Shown in pieces: positions 9,027-32,071 of a DNA stretch of 64,000 nucleotides (its first letter is position 1; each line of letters opens with the position of its first letter). The DNA comes from Escherichia coli phage phiS. The notes under the pieces are model-generated. The model was not told where the DNA came from and did not search any database. It was given only the letters and a program-made list of their open reading frames with translations. The position numbers and the translations under genes were made by a program. The stretch lies in sequence record PP449093.1; one strand, written 5' to 3'.

Positions 9027-9581
9027 ATGACAAAATTTAAGTATTGGGATGAAGAACTACAGAGTGAAATAAGGGATCATTTTGCCCATGACGAGAACGG
9101 CATACTCTATCACAAAACTCATAGTATTCATAAGGGTAAATTTGCACCTGGCGATATTGTCAAAACTCATGTAGGGTCACAAAGAGGACATTTATCTATT
9201 TGGTTATATCTAGGAAATGGTGTAAAATATAAATTGTATGTGCATAGGGTTGTTTGGTTTCTTGAGCATGGGTATCAGGTTGCTATAATCGACCATATAG
9301 ACCAAAATGTATTAAACAATGCACCAAGAAATTTAAGAGAAGCCACTAACCAAGAAAATAAAAGAAATCAGGGAAAGATCAAGAATGTAGGCGGAAGATA
9401 TAAGGGCGCATATCGTGCAAGTTCAGCTATGAAGTCTAAACCGTGGATATGTAAAGTCAGAATAGATGGGAAAACAAAACATTTTGGATATTTCGCGACA
9501 GAAGAAGAAGCGGCAAGAAAATATGATGAGGTGGCTAAGACTCTGTATGGAGAGTTTGCCGTTTTAAATTTTCCAGAATAA
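9027..9581 (+). CDS. HNH homing endonuclease with C-terminal AP2 DNA-binding domain (copy A)
   Basis: HNH core HRVVWFLEHGY...IDHIDQN...NLREAT..EN, then AP2-like GKTKHFGYFATEEEAARKYDEVAKTLYGEFAVLNF. It sits where T4 has alpha-gt. Confidence 0.8.
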   Translation: MTKFKYWDEELQSEIRDHFAHDENGILYHKTHSIHKGKFAPGDIVKTHVGSQRGHLSIWLYLGNGVKYKLYVHRVVWFLEHGYQVAIIDHIDQNVLNNAPRNLREATNQENKRNQGKIKNVGGRYKGAYRASSAMKSKPWICKVRIDGKTKHFGYFATEEEAARKYDEVAKTLYGEFAVLNFPE

Positions 9582-24391: not shown

Positions 24392-24564
24392 TTGGATTTA
24401 AACAGTTTGTTGAAGAAAATAAACTCAAAGAAGATATGACCGCTGGCGATGCTGGCGGCAATCCTGAGAAGATCGCAGCAGGTGAAACGAGCGGATCTAT
24501 TACCAATCGTGGACCTAGTGTAGCGGGTAAAGAAAAACGCAAAAAGGAGAAAGACGGTGCTTAG
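24388..24564 (+). CDS. Hypothetical small protein (58 aa)
   Basis: My own translation; start overlaps the upstream stop (ATGA). Confidence 0.3.
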   Translation: MIGFKQFVEENKLKEDMTAGDAGGNPEKIAAGETSGSITNRGPSVAGKEKRKKEKDGA

Positions 24565-24715
24565 TATCATCATGTTTATCGTTGGCTTGCTGTCCGCTAT
24601 TATCGGTGTTGTTGTTTTCGGATTATCTGGACACAAAACAAAAACAGAAAAGTTATCCGAGATCACAATGTATGTTGGTGTAGTTCTCATTCTGTTGTCG
24701 GTGGCGCTTAAATGA
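24557..24715 (+). CDS. Small two-helix membrane protein (52 aa)
   Basis: GTG after AAGGAGA. Two hydrophobic segments, IIMFIVGLLSAIIGVVVFGL and MYVGVVLILLSVAL. Confidence 0.35.
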   Translation: MLSIIMFIVGLLSAIIGVVVFGLSGHKTKTEKLSEITMYVGVVLILLSVALK

Positions 24716-24915
24716 TTACGATGAAATGTCTTAAAAGCACATATGCACTTTTTGAAGCCGGAAAAGAATATGAATTTACAGAACTTGATTCGGTAGGCCG
24801 TTTTCGTGTATTCTCTTACACATCGCCAGATGGTAGTGTCTACAAATTTGGCTTAGATGAAAACGGAGAGAATGCAAATGAAAGTGTGGGAACTTTCATG
24901 AAATTTGAGCTATAA
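24712..24915 (+). CDS. Hypothetical protein (67 aa)
   Basis: ORF from the track. Confidence 0.45.
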   Translation: MITMKCLKSTYALFEAGKEYEFTELDSVGRFRVFSYTSPDGSVYKFGLDENGENANESVGTFMKFEL

Positions 24916-24924
24916 GAGGTTATT

Positions 24925-25953
24925 ATGATTTACTACGCAGATTATGAAATAGCGGAAAAAGCCATATATGGCGAACGAAATTTTAAACGGTTGCATACTA
25001 GCTCATTTACGCTGGTCTGTAGTTGTCCGATCTGCGGTGACTCAAAGAAAAATCATACTCAAGCGCGATTCCGTATCTATACCTATAAGGATAGTTTGCG
25101 AGCCGGATGTTTCAACTGTAACTACAATCAGCCGTTAGGTGAATTTCTTAAACAATATAAGCCGGACCTATTCAGGGAATGGCTTATGGAACGACGGAAG
25201 GAACAAGGAGATCACAAGAACACTACGTTCAAGCCACTGAAAAAGGTAGAAAAGCCGGAGATTAAGAAAGTGCAAACATTGCCTTTCTGCGAGAGGTTAG
25301 ATACTCTTCCGGCTAATCATCCTATAATAAAGTATGTCAGTGATCGTTGCATCCCTCACGATAAATGGGATCTTCTGTATTTCACGAGAGAATGGCAAAA
25401 GGTAGCAAATCACATTAAGGCTGATACTTTCAAGAATCCACAACCTGAACCGCGTTTAGTGATTCCTATCTTTAACCGCGAGAACAAGATAGAATCCATT
25501 CAGGGGCGAGCATTGAGAAAGGATTACGGAAAGACCAAATATATGACGATTAAAACTCACGAGTTAGCGAGTAAGGTCTATGGTCTTGAACGCGCCGATC
25601 CGAGTAAACCAGTGTATTTCTTAGAAGGTCCGATCGATTCATTGTTTATTGATAACGGGTGTGCAATTACTGGCGGTACGTTGGGATTAGATGAAATCCC
25701 TTTCCCAGACCAGCGAGTGTTTGTACTTGATGCGGAACCACGGTCTGCCGATACAATGCACCGACTGGAAAAGTTTATCAATGCAGGGGAAAAGATTGTA
25801 TTGTGGGACCGTTGCCCGTGGCATTCTAAAGACGTTAACGCCATGATTCAGGACGAGGGCGCTACACGCGACCAGATCATGGAATACATCAAAGAGAACA
25901 CCGTACAAGGTCTGATGGCTAAAATGCGGTTTATGAAATATTGTAAATTTTAA
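24925..25953 (+). CDS. 61: DNA primase gp61
   Basis: Zn-ribbon CSCPICGDSKKN...CFNCNYN and toprim-like C-terminus; ...EGATRDQIMEYIKENTVQGLMAKMR matches T4 gp61 as I recall it. Confidence 0.9.
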   Translation: MIYYADYEIAEKAIYGERNFKRLHTSSFTLVCSCPICGDSKKNHTQARFRIYTYKDSLRAGCFNCNYNQPLGEFLKQYKPDLFREWLMERRKEQGDHKNTTFKPLKKVEKPEIKKVQTLPFCERLDTLPANHPIIKYVSDRCIPHDKWDLLYFTREWQKVANHIKADTFKNPQPEPRLVIPIFNRENKIESIQGRALRKDYGKTKYMTIKTHELASKVYGLERADPSKPVYFLEGPIDSLFIDNGCAITGGTLGLDEIPFPDQRVFVLDAEPRSADTMHRLEKFINAGEKIVLWDRCPWHSKDVNAMIQDEGATRDQIMEYIKENTVQGLMAKMRFMKYCKF

Positions 25954-25970
25954 TTAATGAGGGTTGTATT

Positions 25971-26534
25971 GTGAGGGTAAGGAAAGCCAAAGAATGGAGA
26001 GATGAATTAAAGGATGAAATACGTCGAAGATATAGACACGAAAGGGGTATATTGATTCATAAAACAAACAGCAAAGCAAGCCGAACGACGAAAGAAGGCC
26101 AGTTTTATAAGGTTGGTGATATAGTAAAGGTATCTAAAGTCACAGCCGGACACCTAAAAGTCTCATTTTCTTTTGAAGGAAAACAATATTTTGAGCTTGT
26201 GCATAGAATAGTATTCTTCTTAGAGCATGGGTATTGCCCACCTGTCATTGACCATATTGACGGGAATCCAGAAAACAACGATCCTCCAAACTTAAGAGAG
26301 GCGACACAAAAACAGAATACCCAAAATATGAGAAGAAATAACCAAACTAAAACTAGCAATTTTAAAGGAGTGCATTATAATAGTCGTTCGGGTAAATGGG
26401 TCGCCCAGATAAGGGACAATGAAGGAAATAAAGTCTATATAGGACAATTTGACCTAGAAATAGACGCCGCAATAGTATATAATGACTATGCGTATAAGTA
26501 TCACGGTGAATTTGCAGTGTTTAATGTTATTTGA
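25971..26534 (+). CDS. HNH homing endonuclease with AP2 domain (copy B)
   Basis: VHRIVFFLEHGY...IDHIDGNPENN...NLREAT, then AP2-like KGVHYN...GKWVAQI...YIGQFDLEIDAAIVYNDYAYKYHGEFA. GTG start. Confidence 0.8.
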   Translation: MRVRKAKEWRDELKDEIRRRYRHERGILIHKTNSKASRTTKEGQFYKVGDIVKVSKVTAGHLKVSFSFEGKQYFELVHRIVFFLEHGYCPPVIDHIDGNPENNDPPNLREATQKQNTQNMRRNNQTKTSNFKGVHYNSRSGKWVAQIRDNEGNKVYIGQFDLEIDAAIVYNDYAYKYHGEFAVFNVI

Positions 26535-26544
26535 GAGGTTTATT

Positions 26545-27063
26545 ATGAGTGAATTTAATTCTTGTGCTGGTCTTGTTAATGATGAAACTATGTCTAAAGC
26601 TGGTATTGCGTATTCCGAGGCAATCACTAGCGGTAAAGATCCGCTGCAAGTAATGTTAGATATGCAAAAAGGATTGCAGGTCGCACTAGCTGATAAATTT
26701 GAGTGGGTAATGCATCCTGATAAGCTGGAAACTTGCGGGGAGATCCTTGACTGGATGAAGTTGTGGGATGACGCAATCGACGACGAGACACGAGAACTTT
26801 ATGTTGCCCTGGGTGGCATGTCAAATGGCAAAGATGCAAGCGCAATTACTAAAGTGTGGAAGAAGAACCACGGCGAAGCACGAGCGCGTAAATTTGCTGA
26901 TCTGTCAGATGACGATAAAACCGAAATTGCGATGGAATTGATCGATATCTGGCATTTTGTGCTGATTAAAATGCTGGGCTTAGGTTTAACCGCTAAGGAT
27001 ATCTTCAAGCTGTACTATCTGAAAAATGCTGAAAACTTCGCCCGTCAAGAACGCGGCTACTAA
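26545..27063 (+). CDS. 56: MazG-like nucleotide pyrophosphohydrolase, probable gp56 dCTPase homolog
   Basis: PLQVMLDMQ...HPDKLET...FKLYYLKNAENFARQERGY fits my recollection of T4 gp56. Position between 61 and dda. Confidence 0.6.
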   Translation: MSEFNSCAGLVNDETMSKAGIAYSEAITSGKDPLQVMLDMQKGLQVALADKFEWVMHPDKLETCGEILDWMKLWDDAIDDETRELYVALGGMSNGKDASAITKVWKKNHGEARARKFADLSDDDKTEIAMELIDIWHFVLIKMLGLGLTAKDIFKLYYLKNAENFARQERGY

Positions 27064-27070
27064 AAATTAG

Positions 27071-27099
27071 TTGACACTACTCTATAATGGTTTTATTAT
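27071..27099 (+). promoter_or_regulatory. Early promoter (TTGACA, 17 nt, TATTAT) followed by a leader hairpin that includes the RBS
   Basis: TTGACA ... TATTAT. Downstream hairpin gcctcc-cgtcgaaagatt-ggaggc plus a T-run sits 8 nt before ATG 27133. Confidence 0.4.
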
Positions 27100-27132
27100 G
27101 CCTCCCGTCGAAAGATTGGAGGCTTTTTTATT

Positions 27133-27636
27133 ATGCAATTTACACCAGAAGAACTTAACATCATTGATCAGGTGATGAACTCTAAAGAAAATATCGATAT
27201 GTCGATCCTTAATGGATTGATTGAAAAGACTGAGCGGTTAGTGCATCATGAAGCCTTGTATCGCGGTGTGAGCAAAAGAGAAGGTCGTAAGCTGGATACC
27301 TTAATTGTAGGCGATTCTTTCGTTGTAGAGCGTCCTATGAGCTTTACGCCACTGCAATCAACAGCAGAGGACTTTGCAACCGATGTTTATGCAACGGGAA
27401 AGATTATTGCAATAAAACCTACCAAGCCTTGCATGAATTATTACGAACATGCTATTGACCGAGTGGTGTCTAAAGAGTATGACAATCCGACTACTCGACT
27501 GTCTTTGTATGCTATGTTGGCAGATGAGCGCGAGTGCATATACAAGACAGGGACGACCATGATCCTTGATGAGATCGAGGAAGTTTACGCGTGTAATGGC
27601 GATCTGATAGAGATTTACAAATTTTCTTTAATTTAA
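27133..27636 (+). CDS. Hypothetical protein (167 aa); possible ModA/ModB-like ADP-ribosyltransferase
   Basis: Ordered YRG ... SFT/QST ... EIEEV motifs resemble the R-S-ExE ART triad. It occupies the T4 modA/modB neighbourhood. The function call is weak. Confidence 0.45.
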   Translation: MQFTPEELNIIDQVMNSKENIDMSILNGLIEKTERLVHHEALYRGVSKREGRKLDTLIVGDSFVVERPMSFTPLQSTAEDFATDVYATGKIIAIKPTKPCMNYYEHAIDRVVSKEYDNPTTRLSLYAMLADERECIYKTGTTMILDEIEEVYACNGDLIEIYKFSLI

Positions 27637-27697
27637 GTGTTGACAGCACAAACCAGATAGACAATAATACACACATACCAACTAAGGAGAATCAATT

Positions 27698-28453
27698 ATG
27701 AAACTGTTTGCTTTTAAATCTAACGAAGAATTGGCGCTGGTTGTTTTCCGGCTGAACTCTATCATGGCTGGTGCTTCACGTCGCAACAAAGACTTCTCTA
27801 TGAGCTTAGTCACTGTGCGTAACATTTACCGACAGACTCATTGCGCCTATTCCGGTGAGGCTTTCGGTGAAGGTGATGATGGACTCTCCTTAGAGCGCAT
27901 TGATTGCAATCTGGGATATGTTGATGGCAATGTAATTCCGGTTAAACTGAAATACAATTCTTTCCGTGGCAATCACACTATCGAATCTCTTAAAGAGATC
28001 CAGGAACTAGGAACTAACGGTAAACTTTCTGATGATGAAATTGCCCTACGTGCGAAGTACATCGAGTGGATCGAACTTAACGAGAATCGCATCAAAAATC
28101 AGGAAATGGCAATCGAAGAAAAGAAATTAGCAATCGAGCGCCACAAAAAGCACAACGAACCGGAGAAAGCAGAGGCAGCCGAGCGAGCGATTAAAAATAC
28201 TCTCTTCCGTATGGAAGAACGTTATCAGAAAATTGCCGATCTCAAGCAAGCCCTTAGCGAAATCAACAAGAAAGAAGAAAAACTTAAGGCTATTGCAAAC
28301 AATACCGAAATCGTGCTAAAATATACCAGCGTTTTGATTGAATCTCTTTCTAAGTATGAGAACTTAACGCCAGCACAAAAAGAACGCGTGAAATACGGGA
28401 TTCCGATTGATGCGTCGTGGATTGAATTGATGAAAGCGAAGGTAGGTTTATAA
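27698..28453 (+). CDS. HNH-motif protein with C-terminal coiled coil (251 aa)
   Basis: CAYSGEAF...LSLERID...GYVDGNVIPV...NSFRGN (HNH-like); the C-terminal half is K/E-rich and helical. Confidence 0.55.
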   Translation: MKLFAFKSNEELALVVFRLNSIMAGASRRNKDFSMSLVTVRNIYRQTHCAYSGEAFGEGDDGLSLERIDCNLGYVDGNVIPVKLKYNSFRGNHTIESLKEIQELGTNGKLSDDEIALRAKYIEWIELNENRIKNQEMAIEEKKLAIERHKKHNEPEKAEAAERAIKNTLFRMEERYQKIADLKQALSEINKKEEKLKAIANNTEIVLKYTSVLIESLSKYENLTPAQKERVKYGIPIDASWIELMKAKVGL

Positions 28454-31531: not shown

Positions 31532-32071
31532 ATGGGCGATTTGGAATTATATGAATATCTCCACGAAAGATACTACTACGAAAACGGTAGGCTATTTTTC
31601 AAAAAGGATTTAAAGAATCAGATTAAAGCTGGCGATGAAGCCGGAAACCAATTGACAAAATATGCCGAGGATGGCAGTATCATGTGGAGTCGATGGGTCA
31701 TGAAGGTCAACCGAAAACATTTTTATCGGGCGACCGTTATATGGGTGATGTTTAACAAACAATTACCGCCTAAAGGTTTTGAGGTCGACCATATTGACAG
31801 AAACTCATTAAATGATAAAATAGAAAACCTTCGATTGGTGACTCGAACCAACAACGTAAGAAACCGAGGGAAGATGAGAAAGAATCCTTCGTCAAAATAT
31901 ATTGGCGTTTGTTGGAACAAGTCACATAAGAAATGGGTTGCTAGGATAGGTGGTTATAAGCGCGTATACTTAGGATCATTTAAAGACGAAAAAGAGGCTG
32001 CATTGGCCTATGATAAAGCCGTTAAAGAACTTCATGGAGAATTTGCGGTTTTAAATTTCCCAAATGACTGA
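31532..32071 (+). CDS. HNH homing endonuclease with AP2 domain (copy C)
   Basis: VDHIDRNSLNDKIENLRLVTRTNN, then AP2-like YIGVCWNKSHKKWVARIGG...YLGSFKDEKEAALAYDKAVKELHGEFAVLNF. Confidence 0.8.
   Translation: MGDLELYEYLHERYYYENGRLFFKKDLKNQIKAGDEAGNQLTKYAEDGSIMWSRWVMKVNRKHFYRATVIWVMFNKQLPPKGFEVDHIDRNSLNDKIENLRLVTRTNNVRNRGKMRKNPSSKYIGVCWNKSHKKWVARIGGYKRVYLGSFKDEKEAALAYDKAVKELHGEFAVLNFPND

What the first reader, a model, noticed from the sequence alone, without database searches (positions are those of the whole stretch)
25971..26534. HNH-AP2 endonuclease copy B wedged between primase 61 and the dCTPase gene
It starts with GTG and lies immediately upstream of the 56-like gene, whose track ORF overlaps its 3' end. 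Insertion next to essential nucleotide-metabolism genes is typical of homing-endonuclease invasion at conserved target sequences.
Basis: inference. Interest (0 to 1): 0.35.

Follow-up and report, generated by a model that had tools for sequence, protein, structure and literature searches.

The report
Free-standing HNH-AP2 homing endonuclease gene
This is an ordinary selfish "homing endonuclease" gene that has slipped into the 14-base gap between the primase and dCTPase genes of an RB49-like (Krischvirus) coliphage; it is already annotated as such in six deposited phages and belongs to a class catalogued in 2010.

Summary
The ORF is real: 25971-26534 (+), GTG start, 187 aa. Sequence and predicted fold both give an I-HmuI-like HNH nuclease domain followed by a C-terminal AP2 DNA-binding domain. 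The window is a Krischvirus (RB49-like T4 relative).

- A 577-bp block (25963-26539) is present in 7 of 55 Krischvirus records and exactly absent from 48.
- Every empty site examined has the same junction, on three deeply diverged gene-56 alleles.
- The insert takes over the old gene-56 ribosome-binding site for its own GTG and supplies a new one for gene 56.
- All 8 fixed substitutions separating insert-bearing from insert-free genomes lie in the 44 bp just downstream (26541-26583). The six in the coding region are synonymous or conservative in gp56. This variant occurs only with the insert (7/7 vs 0/48).
- Among carriers, the insert plus gene 56 is far less diverged (0-0.9%, one exception) than their backgrounds (up to 8.8%).

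One correction: gene 56 starts at 26545, not 26482, so the genes do not overlap.

Cleavage and target site are inferred, not shown. The element is ordinary and already known; interest is low.

The parts
25971..26534 (+). Homing endonuclease ORF, 187 aa, GTG start. N-terminal HNH_3 (I-HmuI-like 'HNN') nuclease core at about residues 76-117, with D94-H95...N107...N116. C-terminal AP2 DNA-binding domain at about residues 128-185.
   Evidence: The ORF is intact in all six sequenced copies, with 5 synonymous and 3 non-synonymous polymorphic codons.
25963..26539 (+). The inserted block: 577 bp present or absent as a unit relative to insert-free relatives. G+C is 37.1% against 40.4% for the window.
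   Evidence: Alignments; G+C; distribution. The borders are ambiguous by a few bases, because GAGG is repeated at both ends and the spacer to the ATG is re-written.
25959..25963 (+). Shine-Dalgarno GAGG(G). In empty genomes it serves gene 56 (GAGG-TGAAT-ATG). Here it is captured by the endonuclease (GAGGG-TTGTATT-GTG).
   Evidence: Read directly from the sequence. The same site is annotated as the gene-56 ribosome-binding site in Ec_Makalu_001/003.
26533..26538 (+). Replacement Shine-Dalgarno GAGAGG for gene 56, brought in by the insert. It overlaps the endonuclease stop codon TGA (26532-26534) and lies 6 nt before ATG 26545.
26540..26583 (+). Insert-linked variant of the gene-56 translation start region. 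All 8 fixed substitutions against every insert-free genome fall here, plus a 1-nt spacer change. In coding terms these are TCA>AGT (Ser2), CTG>CTT (Leu10), AGC/AAC>AAT (codon 12) and GAC>GAT (Asp13). Inferred to be the disrupted recognition/cleavage region, the inner end of a co-conversion tract, or both.
   Evidence: The variant is 100% linked to the insert: 7 of 7 filled records and 0 of 48 empty records.
26584..26712 (+). Outer part of the co-conversion-like tract. Further differences from the closest insert-free phages (MIZ6, OZ035808) fall in gp56 codons 30-56 and are mostly synonymous. MIZ6 shows none after codon 56.
26545..27063 (+). Gene 56 (dCTPase / NTP pyrophosphohydrolase), 172 aa. 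It is the probable target gene and the hitch-hiking neighbour.
24925..25953 (+). Gene 61 (DNA primase), the upstream flank. Its last ~300 bp are nearly invariant in all relatives, and there are no insert-linked differences.

Best explanation
This is a free-standing (intron-less) homing endonuclease gene of the HNH-AP2 class. It sits in the 14-nt spacer between gene 61 (primase) and gene 56 (dCTPase) of a Krischvirus phage. No convincing promoter of its own was found, so I take it to be a promoter-less cassette. It would be read from the 61-56 polycistronic message, starting at a GTG behind the ribosome-binding site that used to serve gene 56, and it supplies a new ribosome-binding site for gene 56.

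Inferred mechanism: when a carrier phage and an insert-free relative infect the same cell, the protein docks through its AP2 domain on the insert-free 61/56 junction and gene-56 start region. Its I-HmuI-like HNH domain then nicks or cuts there. Phage recombination repair copies the carrier's sequence, namely the endonuclease gene plus a stretch of the adjoining gene 56, into the broken genome. The carrier's own copy is protected by the insertion and by the cluster of silent changes in the first 13 codons of gene 56.

Shown here: domain architecture and fold, intact catalytic residues, the exact presence/absence polymorphism, the private linked variant next to the insert, and the low divergence of the insert-plus-gene-56 block.

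Inferred: that the protein cuts, where it cuts, and that it still spreads.
For: Protein:
- HNH_3 E 9e-14 plus AP2; phrog_99 E 6e-44.
- I-HmuI and plant AP2 hits by sequence and by fold.
- D94, H95, N99, N102, N107 and N116 are invariant among paralogues.

Mobility:
- 7 filled against 48 empty records, with an exact 577-bp indel.
- The aligned empty sites are identical (one base aside) on three gene-56 alleles that differ by 27-43% in nucleotides.
- All 8 fixed differences lie at 26541-26583. The six coding ones are synonymous or conservative, including a three-base Ser recoding TCA>AGT. They are perfectly linked to the insert.
- Differences from the closest empty phages decay with distance: 11 in the first 100 bp, 5 in the next 100, then 0.
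- Among carriers the insert is 0.2-0.9% diverged and gene 56 is 0-0.6% (KFS-EC 1.2-2.8%), while their flanks differ by 1.5-8.8% and are no closer to each other than to non-carriers.

Other support:
- Polymorphism within the ORF is 5 synonymous to 3 non-synonymous, with no stops.
- The nearest relatives (48-49% identity) sit in other intergenic gaps beside replication genes, after gene 39 and between rpbA and gene 45.
- Literature: HNH-AP2 is a listed class of homing endonuclease genes in RB49, JSE, RB43 and RB16 (PMC2993671, Table 5). T4 free-standing endonucleases are often promoter-less cassettes, and SegF sits next to and cuts gene 56 (PMC2988022).
Against: - No cleavage, nicking or inheritance data exist for this protein, and the papers I read report none for a close relative.
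- AP2 scores below Pfam's gathering cut-off (28.9 vs 33.3 bits).
- All carriers share one gene-56 allele type, so a single old insertion followed by ordinary recombination could give much of the pattern.
- The linked substitutions could be donor sequence dragged in by co-conversion rather than changes selected for immunity. The two cannot be separated here.
- T4 free-standing endonucleases usually cut hundreds of bp from their gene (PMC2988022), so the true site may lie elsewhere in gene 56.
- Only 7 of 55 records carry the insert, so it is not sweeping.
Confidence: 0.8

Rival explanations
1. A spent or decaying homing endonuclease gene. It inserted once, no longer cuts anything, and is carried along passively. 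The presence/absence pattern would reflect vertical descent plus ordinary recombination.
For: - No activity data exist.
- Carriers are a minority, 7 of 55 records.
- All carriers share the same gene-56 allele type.
- Decay after fixation is the pattern described for HNH-AP2 genes in Xanthomonas phages (PMC2248197).
Against: - The ORF is full-length in all six copies, with catalytic residues intact and a 5:3 ratio of synonymous to non-synonymous polymorphisms.
- The insert-plus-gene-56 block is much younger than the backgrounds it sits in.
Confidence: 0.12
2. The gene is ancestral to Krischvirus and was deleted in most lineages. The polymorphism would then be loss, not gain.
For: Presence/absence alone has no direction. 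Precise loss of homing endonuclease genes is part of their known life cycle.
Against: - The seven empty junctions aligned are the same on three gene-56 alleles that differ by 27-43%, and all 48 empty records share the ancestral-type start region.
- The insert shows only 0.2-0.9% diversity against 1.5-8.8% in the flanks.
- The insert's G+C is lower than the window's.
- The gene-56 ribosome-binding site is duplicated in the filled state, as expected of an insertion that had to keep gene 56 translated.
Confidence: 0.04
3. A domesticated HNH-AP2 protein with a job for the phage. Examples would be an AP2-type DNA-binding regulator of gene 56, or a nuclease used mainly to cripple co-infecting relatives, rather than a purely selfish element.
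For: - The position immediately upstream of gene 56 couples the two genes on one message and changes the gene-56 translation start region.
- AP2 domains and homing-endonuclease DNA-binding domains have been co-opted as regulators elsewhere (PMC10448857).
- Intron endonucleases can serve inter-phage competition (my own recollection of recent work, not checked here).
Against: - Most close relatives do without it, including phages with nearly identical flanks (MIZ6 at about 98%).
- The nuclease motif is conserved rather than lost.
- No RNA structure or promoter suggests regulation.
Confidence: 0.04

Closest known systems
HNH-AP2 free-standing homing endonuclease genes of T4-related phages (e.g. 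RB49ORF040c; class tabulated by Petrov et al. 2010, PMC2993671; family defined by Magnani et al. 2004)
   Same: - Same two-domain architecture and about the same size: RB49ORF040c is 184 aa and is annotated 'HNH endonuclease; DNA-binding AP2 domain'.
- Same habit of sitting in intergenic gaps just upstream of replication or recombination genes.
- Same phage genus.
   Different: - Only 35-49% identical to any other member found.
- It occupies a different site (61/56), which is empty in RB49, Phi1 and JSE.
- No member of this phage class had cleavage data in the papers I read.
I-HmuI (PDB 1u3e), the intron-encoded HNH endonuclease of Bacillus phage SPO1
   Same: - Best sequence and fold match for the nuclease half.
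- Shared motif: ...vDHkDGNkdNN...NLRwvTQKiN aligned with IDHIDGNPENN..NLREATQKQN.
- No cysteine zinc dyads; elongated multi-domain layout.
   Different: - I-HmuI is intron-encoded and has a different C-terminal DNA-binding domain.
- It is a nicking enzyme (my own knowledge). Whether this protein nicks or makes a double-strand break is unknown.
- Identity is only 21%.
T4 SegF (GIY-YIG/hybrid) at soc/56, and intron-less homing with localized marker exclusion (Belle et al. 2002, as summarised in PMC2988022)
   Same: - A free-standing endonuclease gene abutting gene 56, with gene 56 as the (here inferred) target.
- A promoter-less cassette inside an existing transcription unit.
- Co-conversion of flanking markers.
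   Different: - Unrelated nuclease family.
- SegF lies on the other side of gene 56.
- SegF cleavage and preferential inheritance are experimentally shown; here they are inferred.
IPA-HNH genes and 'HEG islands' of vibriophage ICP1 (Barth, Dunham & Seed 2023, PMC10448857)
   Same: - N-terminal HNH plus C-terminal AP2.
- The nuclease gene sits at a boundary of genetic exchange. Here gene 56 is a swapped cassette bounded by conserved ends, with endonuclease genes beside it.
   Different: - ICP1 proteins are too divergent for the Pfam HNH_3 profile, whereas this one matches it strongly.
- Different phage family.

Membership tests
HNH / His-Me finger endonucleases, HNH_3 (I-HmuI-like 'HNN') subgroup | Profile match above the curated threshold | tested here: met
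   PF13392 HNH_3 scores 51.3 bits against a cut-off of 24.8, E 9.2e-14, residues 76-117.
HNH / His-Me finger endonucleases, HNH_3 (I-HmuI-like 'HNN') subgroup | Catalytic Asp-His general base and the downstream Asn residues of the motif are present | tested here: met
   IDH(95)IDGNPENN...N(107)LREATQKQN(116) aligns with the I-HmuI motif. D94, H95, N99, N102, N107 and N116 are invariant among seven homologues.
HNH / His-Me finger endonucleases, HNH_3 (I-HmuI-like 'HNN') subgroup | Fold resembling a solved family member | tested here: met
   The AlphaFold2 model has pLDDT 85.1. The top Foldseek hit is 1u3e (I-HmuI), E 1.2e-4, probability 1.00. The global TM-score is low (0.40) because the domain arrangement differs.
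HNH / His-Me finger endonucleases, HNH_3 (I-HmuI-like 'HNN') subgroup | Metal-dependent DNA nicking or cleavage | not testable with these tools
   This needs purified protein and substrate DNA.
AP2/ERF DNA-binding domain | Pfam AP2 profile above the gathering score | tested here: not met
   PF00847 scores 28.9 bits against a cut-off of 33.3 (E 1.4e-6), residues 130-179. Paralogue C in the window passes, at 44.8 bits.
AP2/ERF DNA-binding domain | Three-stranded sheet packed on a helix, superimposable on solved AP2 domains | tested here: met
   The model has strands 134-137, 142-148 and 154-160, then helix 163-181. It overlays 1gcc (AtERF1) at TM 0.79, rmsd 1.5 A, over 59 columns at 34% identity, and also matches TEM1 and ERF96. 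Sequence hits to WRI1, ERF096 and AtERF1 have E 1e-7 to 4e-4.
Free-standing homing endonuclease gene (intron-less homing) | Precise presence/absence polymorphism at one site among closely related genomes | tested here: met
   7 filled against 48 empty Krischvirus records. The indel is an exact 577 bp, with flanks up to 98% identical.
Free-standing homing endonuclease gene (intron-less homing) | Not inside an intron or intein; has its own translation start | tested here: met
   It lies in the 61/56 intergenic spacer with a Shine-Dalgarno plus GTG. There is no Rfam match, group I introns included, in 24500-27700 at E<=1, apart from one chance-level hit elsewhere.
Free-standing homing endonuclease gene (intron-less homing) | The carrier allele differs from the empty alleles at or near the target (self-immunity), with flanking co-conversion | tested here: inconclusive
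   A private, perfectly linked cluster of 8 substitutions lies at 26541-26583, and divergence decays over about 170 bp. This is as expected, but the cleavage site is unknown, so immunity is not demonstrated.
Free-standing homing endonuclease gene (intron-less homing) | Site-specific cleavage of the empty allele and super-Mendelian inheritance in mixed infection | not testable with these tools
   This needs biochemistry and phage crosses.

The most novel reading that the evidence does not exclude
The endonuclease and the essential gene 56 next to it travel together as a small 'HEG island'.

The evidence that does not exclude this:
- Krischvirus gene 56 exists as three alleles differing by 27-43% in nucleotides. 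They are bounded by conserved ends, in genomes whose flanks differ by only 1-3%.
- Different endonuclease genes are attached to different alleles: the HNH-AP2 upstream of the MIZ6-type allele, and a phrog_655 endonuclease downstream of the JSE-type allele.
- T4's SegF also sits beside gene 56.

On this reading, rival endonucleases drive allele replacement at the dCTPase gene, and the deep allelic divergence is maintained by this conflict.
Probability: 0.3. Interest if true: 0.45.

Novelty: already known. Interest (0 to 1): 0.15.

Why it matters
It matters little beyond correct annotation. It is a clean natural example of intron-less homing, with filled and empty alleles at about 98% flank identity and a sharply delimited linked variant that points to a candidate target of about 45 bp. 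That makes an easy cleavage and cross experiment possible for the HNH-AP2 class, for which I found no cleavage data in T4-like phages in the papers I read.

It also shows that gene 56 attracts endonuclease genes of unrelated families in different T4-like genera: SegF in T4, this HNH-AP2, and the JSE endonuclease. Practically, gene callers should start gene 56 at 26545.

Tried and rejected
- **Translational control by RNA structure.** Folding 25930-26030 as RNA gave -9.5 kcal/mol, z -0.25, which is no better than shuffles.
- **Own promoter or terminator.** No convincing sigma-70-like site lies upstream of the ORF. The scan found 13 sites against 8.9 expected, and the only internal site (26455-26483, 10 of 12) is unremarkable. 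No terminator lies near the ORF. The T4 late-promoter core TATAAATA is absent from the region.
- **Intron or other RNA family.** Nothing was found in 24500-27700.
- **Insert-free genomes carrying the 'immune' gene-56 variant, or a possible donor.** There were 0 exact matches in IMG/VR and none among the 48 empty phage records. The empty-site pattern occurs in only 3 IMG/VR contigs, so that collection adds little.
- **Closer relatives in the 5.8-billion-protein set.** Only 4 hits reached E<=1e-20, and the nearest non-identical one is 49% identical. No donor lineage was identified.
- **Packaging-associated HNH (terminase partner).** Rejected: the gene lies in the replication gene cluster, far from any terminase context, and has an AP2 domain.
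- **Belle et al. 2002 (PMC155333)** is not held in the library, so SegF details are taken from the review PMC2988022.

Full report
**What is there.**
- It matches Pfam HNH_3 well above threshold (E 9.2e-14, 51.3 bits) and AP2 just below threshold (E 1.4e-6, 28.9 vs 33.3 bits).
- It matches the large phage family phrog_99 'HNH endonuclease' at E 6e-44.
- Against solved structures by sequence, the nuclease half matches the homing endonuclease I-HmuI (1u3e, E 1.2e-5). The C-terminal third matches plant AP2/ERF domains (WRI1 1.3e-7, ERF096 1e-4, AtERF1 2e-4).
- An AlphaFold2 model from a seven-sequence alignment has pLDDT 85. Its best Foldseek match in the PDB is I-HmuI, and its C-terminal sheet-plus-helix overlays the AtERF1 GCC-box-binding domain at 1.5 A rmsd, TM 0.79.
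- The motif IDHIDGNPENNDPPNLREATQKQN keeps the Asp-His and Asn residues of the I-HmuI-type ('HNN') active site. These are invariant among its homologues.
- There are no cysteine dyads, as described for HNN-AP2 proteins (PMC2248197).

**Context.** The window is from an RB49-like T4 relative (genus Krischvirus). The local gene order is 41 helicase, dc2, dc1, 61.1, two small ORFs, 61 primase, this ORF, 56 dCTPase, modB-like, srd, dda. The best overall match is phage ELT3 at 97.8% over 95% of a 25-kb stretch, so the window is not an exact copy of any deposited genome. Two paralogues lie in the window, which justifies 'copy B':
- 9027..9581 (41% identity), upstream of gene 47.
- 31532..32071 (35% identity), upstream of gene 39.

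**One correction.** The 'overlap' with the gene-56 ORF is an artefact of taking the longest ORF (26482..27063). In insert-free relatives gp56 begins MSEFNSC..., corresponding to ATG 26545. The two genes are 10 nt apart.

- A megablast of 61 + ORF + 56 finds 76 phage records. Seven contain the whole stretch: G2494, KFS-EC (GenBank and RefSeq copies), ELT3, AV108, TB34 and SAP. In the other Krischvirus records the two flanks are adjacent and the ORF is missing.
- Alignment gives an exact 577-bp indel, 25963-26539. The empty site reads ...TTTTAATTAATGAGG|TGAATATGTCAGAATTT... The filled site reads ...TTTTAATTAATGAGG[GTTGTATTGTG...TTTGAGAGGT]TTATTATGAGTGAATTT....
- The insert therefore uses the old gene-56 Shine-Dalgarno for its own GTG. 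It brings a new one (GAGAGG, overlapping its stop codon) for gene 56.
- In six of the seven empty genomes I aligned, the junction and the first ~25 nt of gene 56 are identical; SSG23 differs at one base. This holds although the rest of gene 56 falls into three alleles (MIZ6-type, RB49-type, JSE-type) that differ from each other by 27-43% in nucleotides, in genomes whose flanks differ by about 1-3%.

**Signature next to the insert.**
- Comparing six carriers with seven non-carriers, every fixed difference (8 substitutions plus a 1-nt spacer change) lies at 26541-26583, immediately downstream of the insert. None lies in gene 61.
- In coding terms they are TCA>AGT (Ser2, a three-base recoding), CTG>CTT (Leu10), AGC/AAC>AAT (codon 12, Ser or Asn to Asn) and GAC>GAT (Asp13). 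They are silent or conservative.
- A 65-nt query of this segment is 100% identical only in the seven carrier records. All 48 insert-free Krischvirus records carry the other version.
- Against the closest non-carriers (MIZ6, OZ035808), differences decay with distance: 11 in the first 100 bp, 5 in the next 100, then none for 300 bp. They end at gp56 codon 56.
- This is what is expected of a disrupted target, a co-conversion tract from the original donor, or both. I cannot separate the two.

**Age of the block.**
- Among carriers the insert differs by 0.2-0.9% and gene 56 by 0-0.6% (KFS-EC 1.2-2.8%).
- The same phages differ by 1.5-8.8% in gene 41, dc2-61.1, the 5' half of gene 61 and dda.
- In those segments they are no closer to one another than to non-carriers such as RB49 or Sf20.
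- The insert-plus-gene-56 block is thus younger than the backgrounds it sits in. This favours lateral spread over old vertical inheritance or repeated loss.
- Within the ORF there are 8 polymorphic codons, 5 synonymous and 3 non-synonymous. All three non-synonymous changes are N-terminal to the catalytic core, and there are no stops. This fits a gene still under constraint, on small numbers.

**Expression.**
- No convincing promoter lies in front of the ORF and no terminator lies near it.
- There is no late-promoter core, no RNA structure masking the start and no intron or other Rfam family.

**Mechanism (inferred).** In a mixed infection the protein recognises the insert-free junction and gene-56 start region and nicks or cuts it. 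Recombination repair then copies the insert and part of gene 56 from the carrier. I-HmuI, the closest solved relative, is a nicking enzyme (my own knowledge), so a nick converted to a break by replication is as likely as a direct double-strand break. T4 free-standing enzymes often cut hundreds of bp from their gene (PMC2988022), so the true site could be deeper in gene 56 than the linked variant suggests.

**Comparison with the known.**
- HNH-AP2 proteins were recognised as a homing-endonuclease family in cyanobacteria, ciliates and phages, including RB49 (Magnani et al. 2004, as cited in PMC2993671 and PMC10448857).
- Petrov et al. 2010 tabulate 'HNH-AP2' as a class: one in RB49, two in JSE, three in RB43 and six in RB16 (PMC2993671, Table 5).
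- The very gene is annotated 'homing endonuclease' or 'putative HNH endonuclease' in ELT3, AV108, TB34, SAP and G2494.
- The nearest non-identical relatives (48-49% identity) occupy other intergenic gaps beside replication genes, after gene 39 and between rpbA and gene 45.
- T4 SegF, an unrelated GIY-YIG-type enzyme, also sits beside gene 56 and cuts it (PMC2988022). JSE carries yet another endonuclease gene on the other side of gene 56.
- I found no paper dealing with this particular 61/56 insertion.

**Verdict.** This is an ordinary, already annotated member of a known class. Cleavage activity and target are inferred only.

The most novel reading left open is that the endonuclease and gene 56 move together as a small 'HEG island', and that competing endonucleases maintain the three deep gene-56 alleles. 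I put this at about 0.3 probability.

Noticed in passing
window 9027-9581 (+): HNH-AP2 'copy A' (184 aa) sits between a-gt.4 and gene 47. None of 58 Krischvirus records has this sequence at megablast level. Most are empty at the site, but RB49, MIZ4 and JK32 carry a gene there. RB49's (RB49ORF040c) is also an HNH-AP2 of 184 aa but only 47% identical. At least two diverged alleles of an endonuclease gene therefore occupy one site.
   Followed up: partly
window 31532-32071 (+): HNH-AP2 'copy C' (179 aa; its AP2 domain passes the Pfam threshold) lies immediately upstream of gene 39 (topoisomerase). No record in the phage collection contains it. Most records listed are empty at the site (some match only the upstream part of the query), and JK32 has an unrelated 242-aa endonuclease there.
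   Followed up: partly
window 26570-27040 (gene 56 body): Gene 56 is a swapped cassette in Krischvirus. Three alleles (MIZ6-, RB49- and JSE-type) differ by 27-43% in nucleotides, while the first ~25 nt and the last ~25 nt of the gene, and both flanks, are 97-99% conserved.
   Followed up: partly
L004 (phage JSE) 4087-5007, minus strand: A 306-aa homing endonuclease (phrog_655, NUMOD3 motif) lies between gene 56 and modB on the opposite strand and overlaps the 3' end of the JSE-type gene 56. It is a second, unrelated endonuclease gene adjacent to gene 56 in the same genus.
   Followed up: partly
L007 (phage TB34) 2430-2993 (+): TB34 carries a further 187-aa endonuclease gene (NUMOD4 + HNH_3 + weak HTH_7, no AP2) directly upstream of gene 61. 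In that phage the primase gene is therefore flanked by endonuclease genes on both sides.
   Followed up: no
window 27698-28453 (+): The Srd-like protein (phrog_1400, E 2e-73) also matches phage 'HNH endonuclease' and 'endonuclease VII' families more weakly through its N-terminal ~100-170 residues (phrog_3118 at 2e-12, phrog_3322 at 1e-10, phrog_1035 at 1e-4). Pfam finds nothing.
   Followed up: no
window 27071-27099 and 27640-27668 (+): Two near-consensus sigma-70-type promoter-like sites (TTGACA-17-TATTAT and TTGACA-17-AATAAT, 11 of 12 each) lie just upstream of the modB-like gene and of srd. By contrast, no such site precedes the endonuclease gene.
   Followed up: no
window 24941-25141 (5' part of gene 61): Carriers AV108 and TB34 differ from the window by 12-16% in the first ~200 bp of gene 61, but by 2% or less further on. 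This is a sharp mosaic boundary inside the primase gene, unrelated to the 61/56 insert.
   Followed up: no
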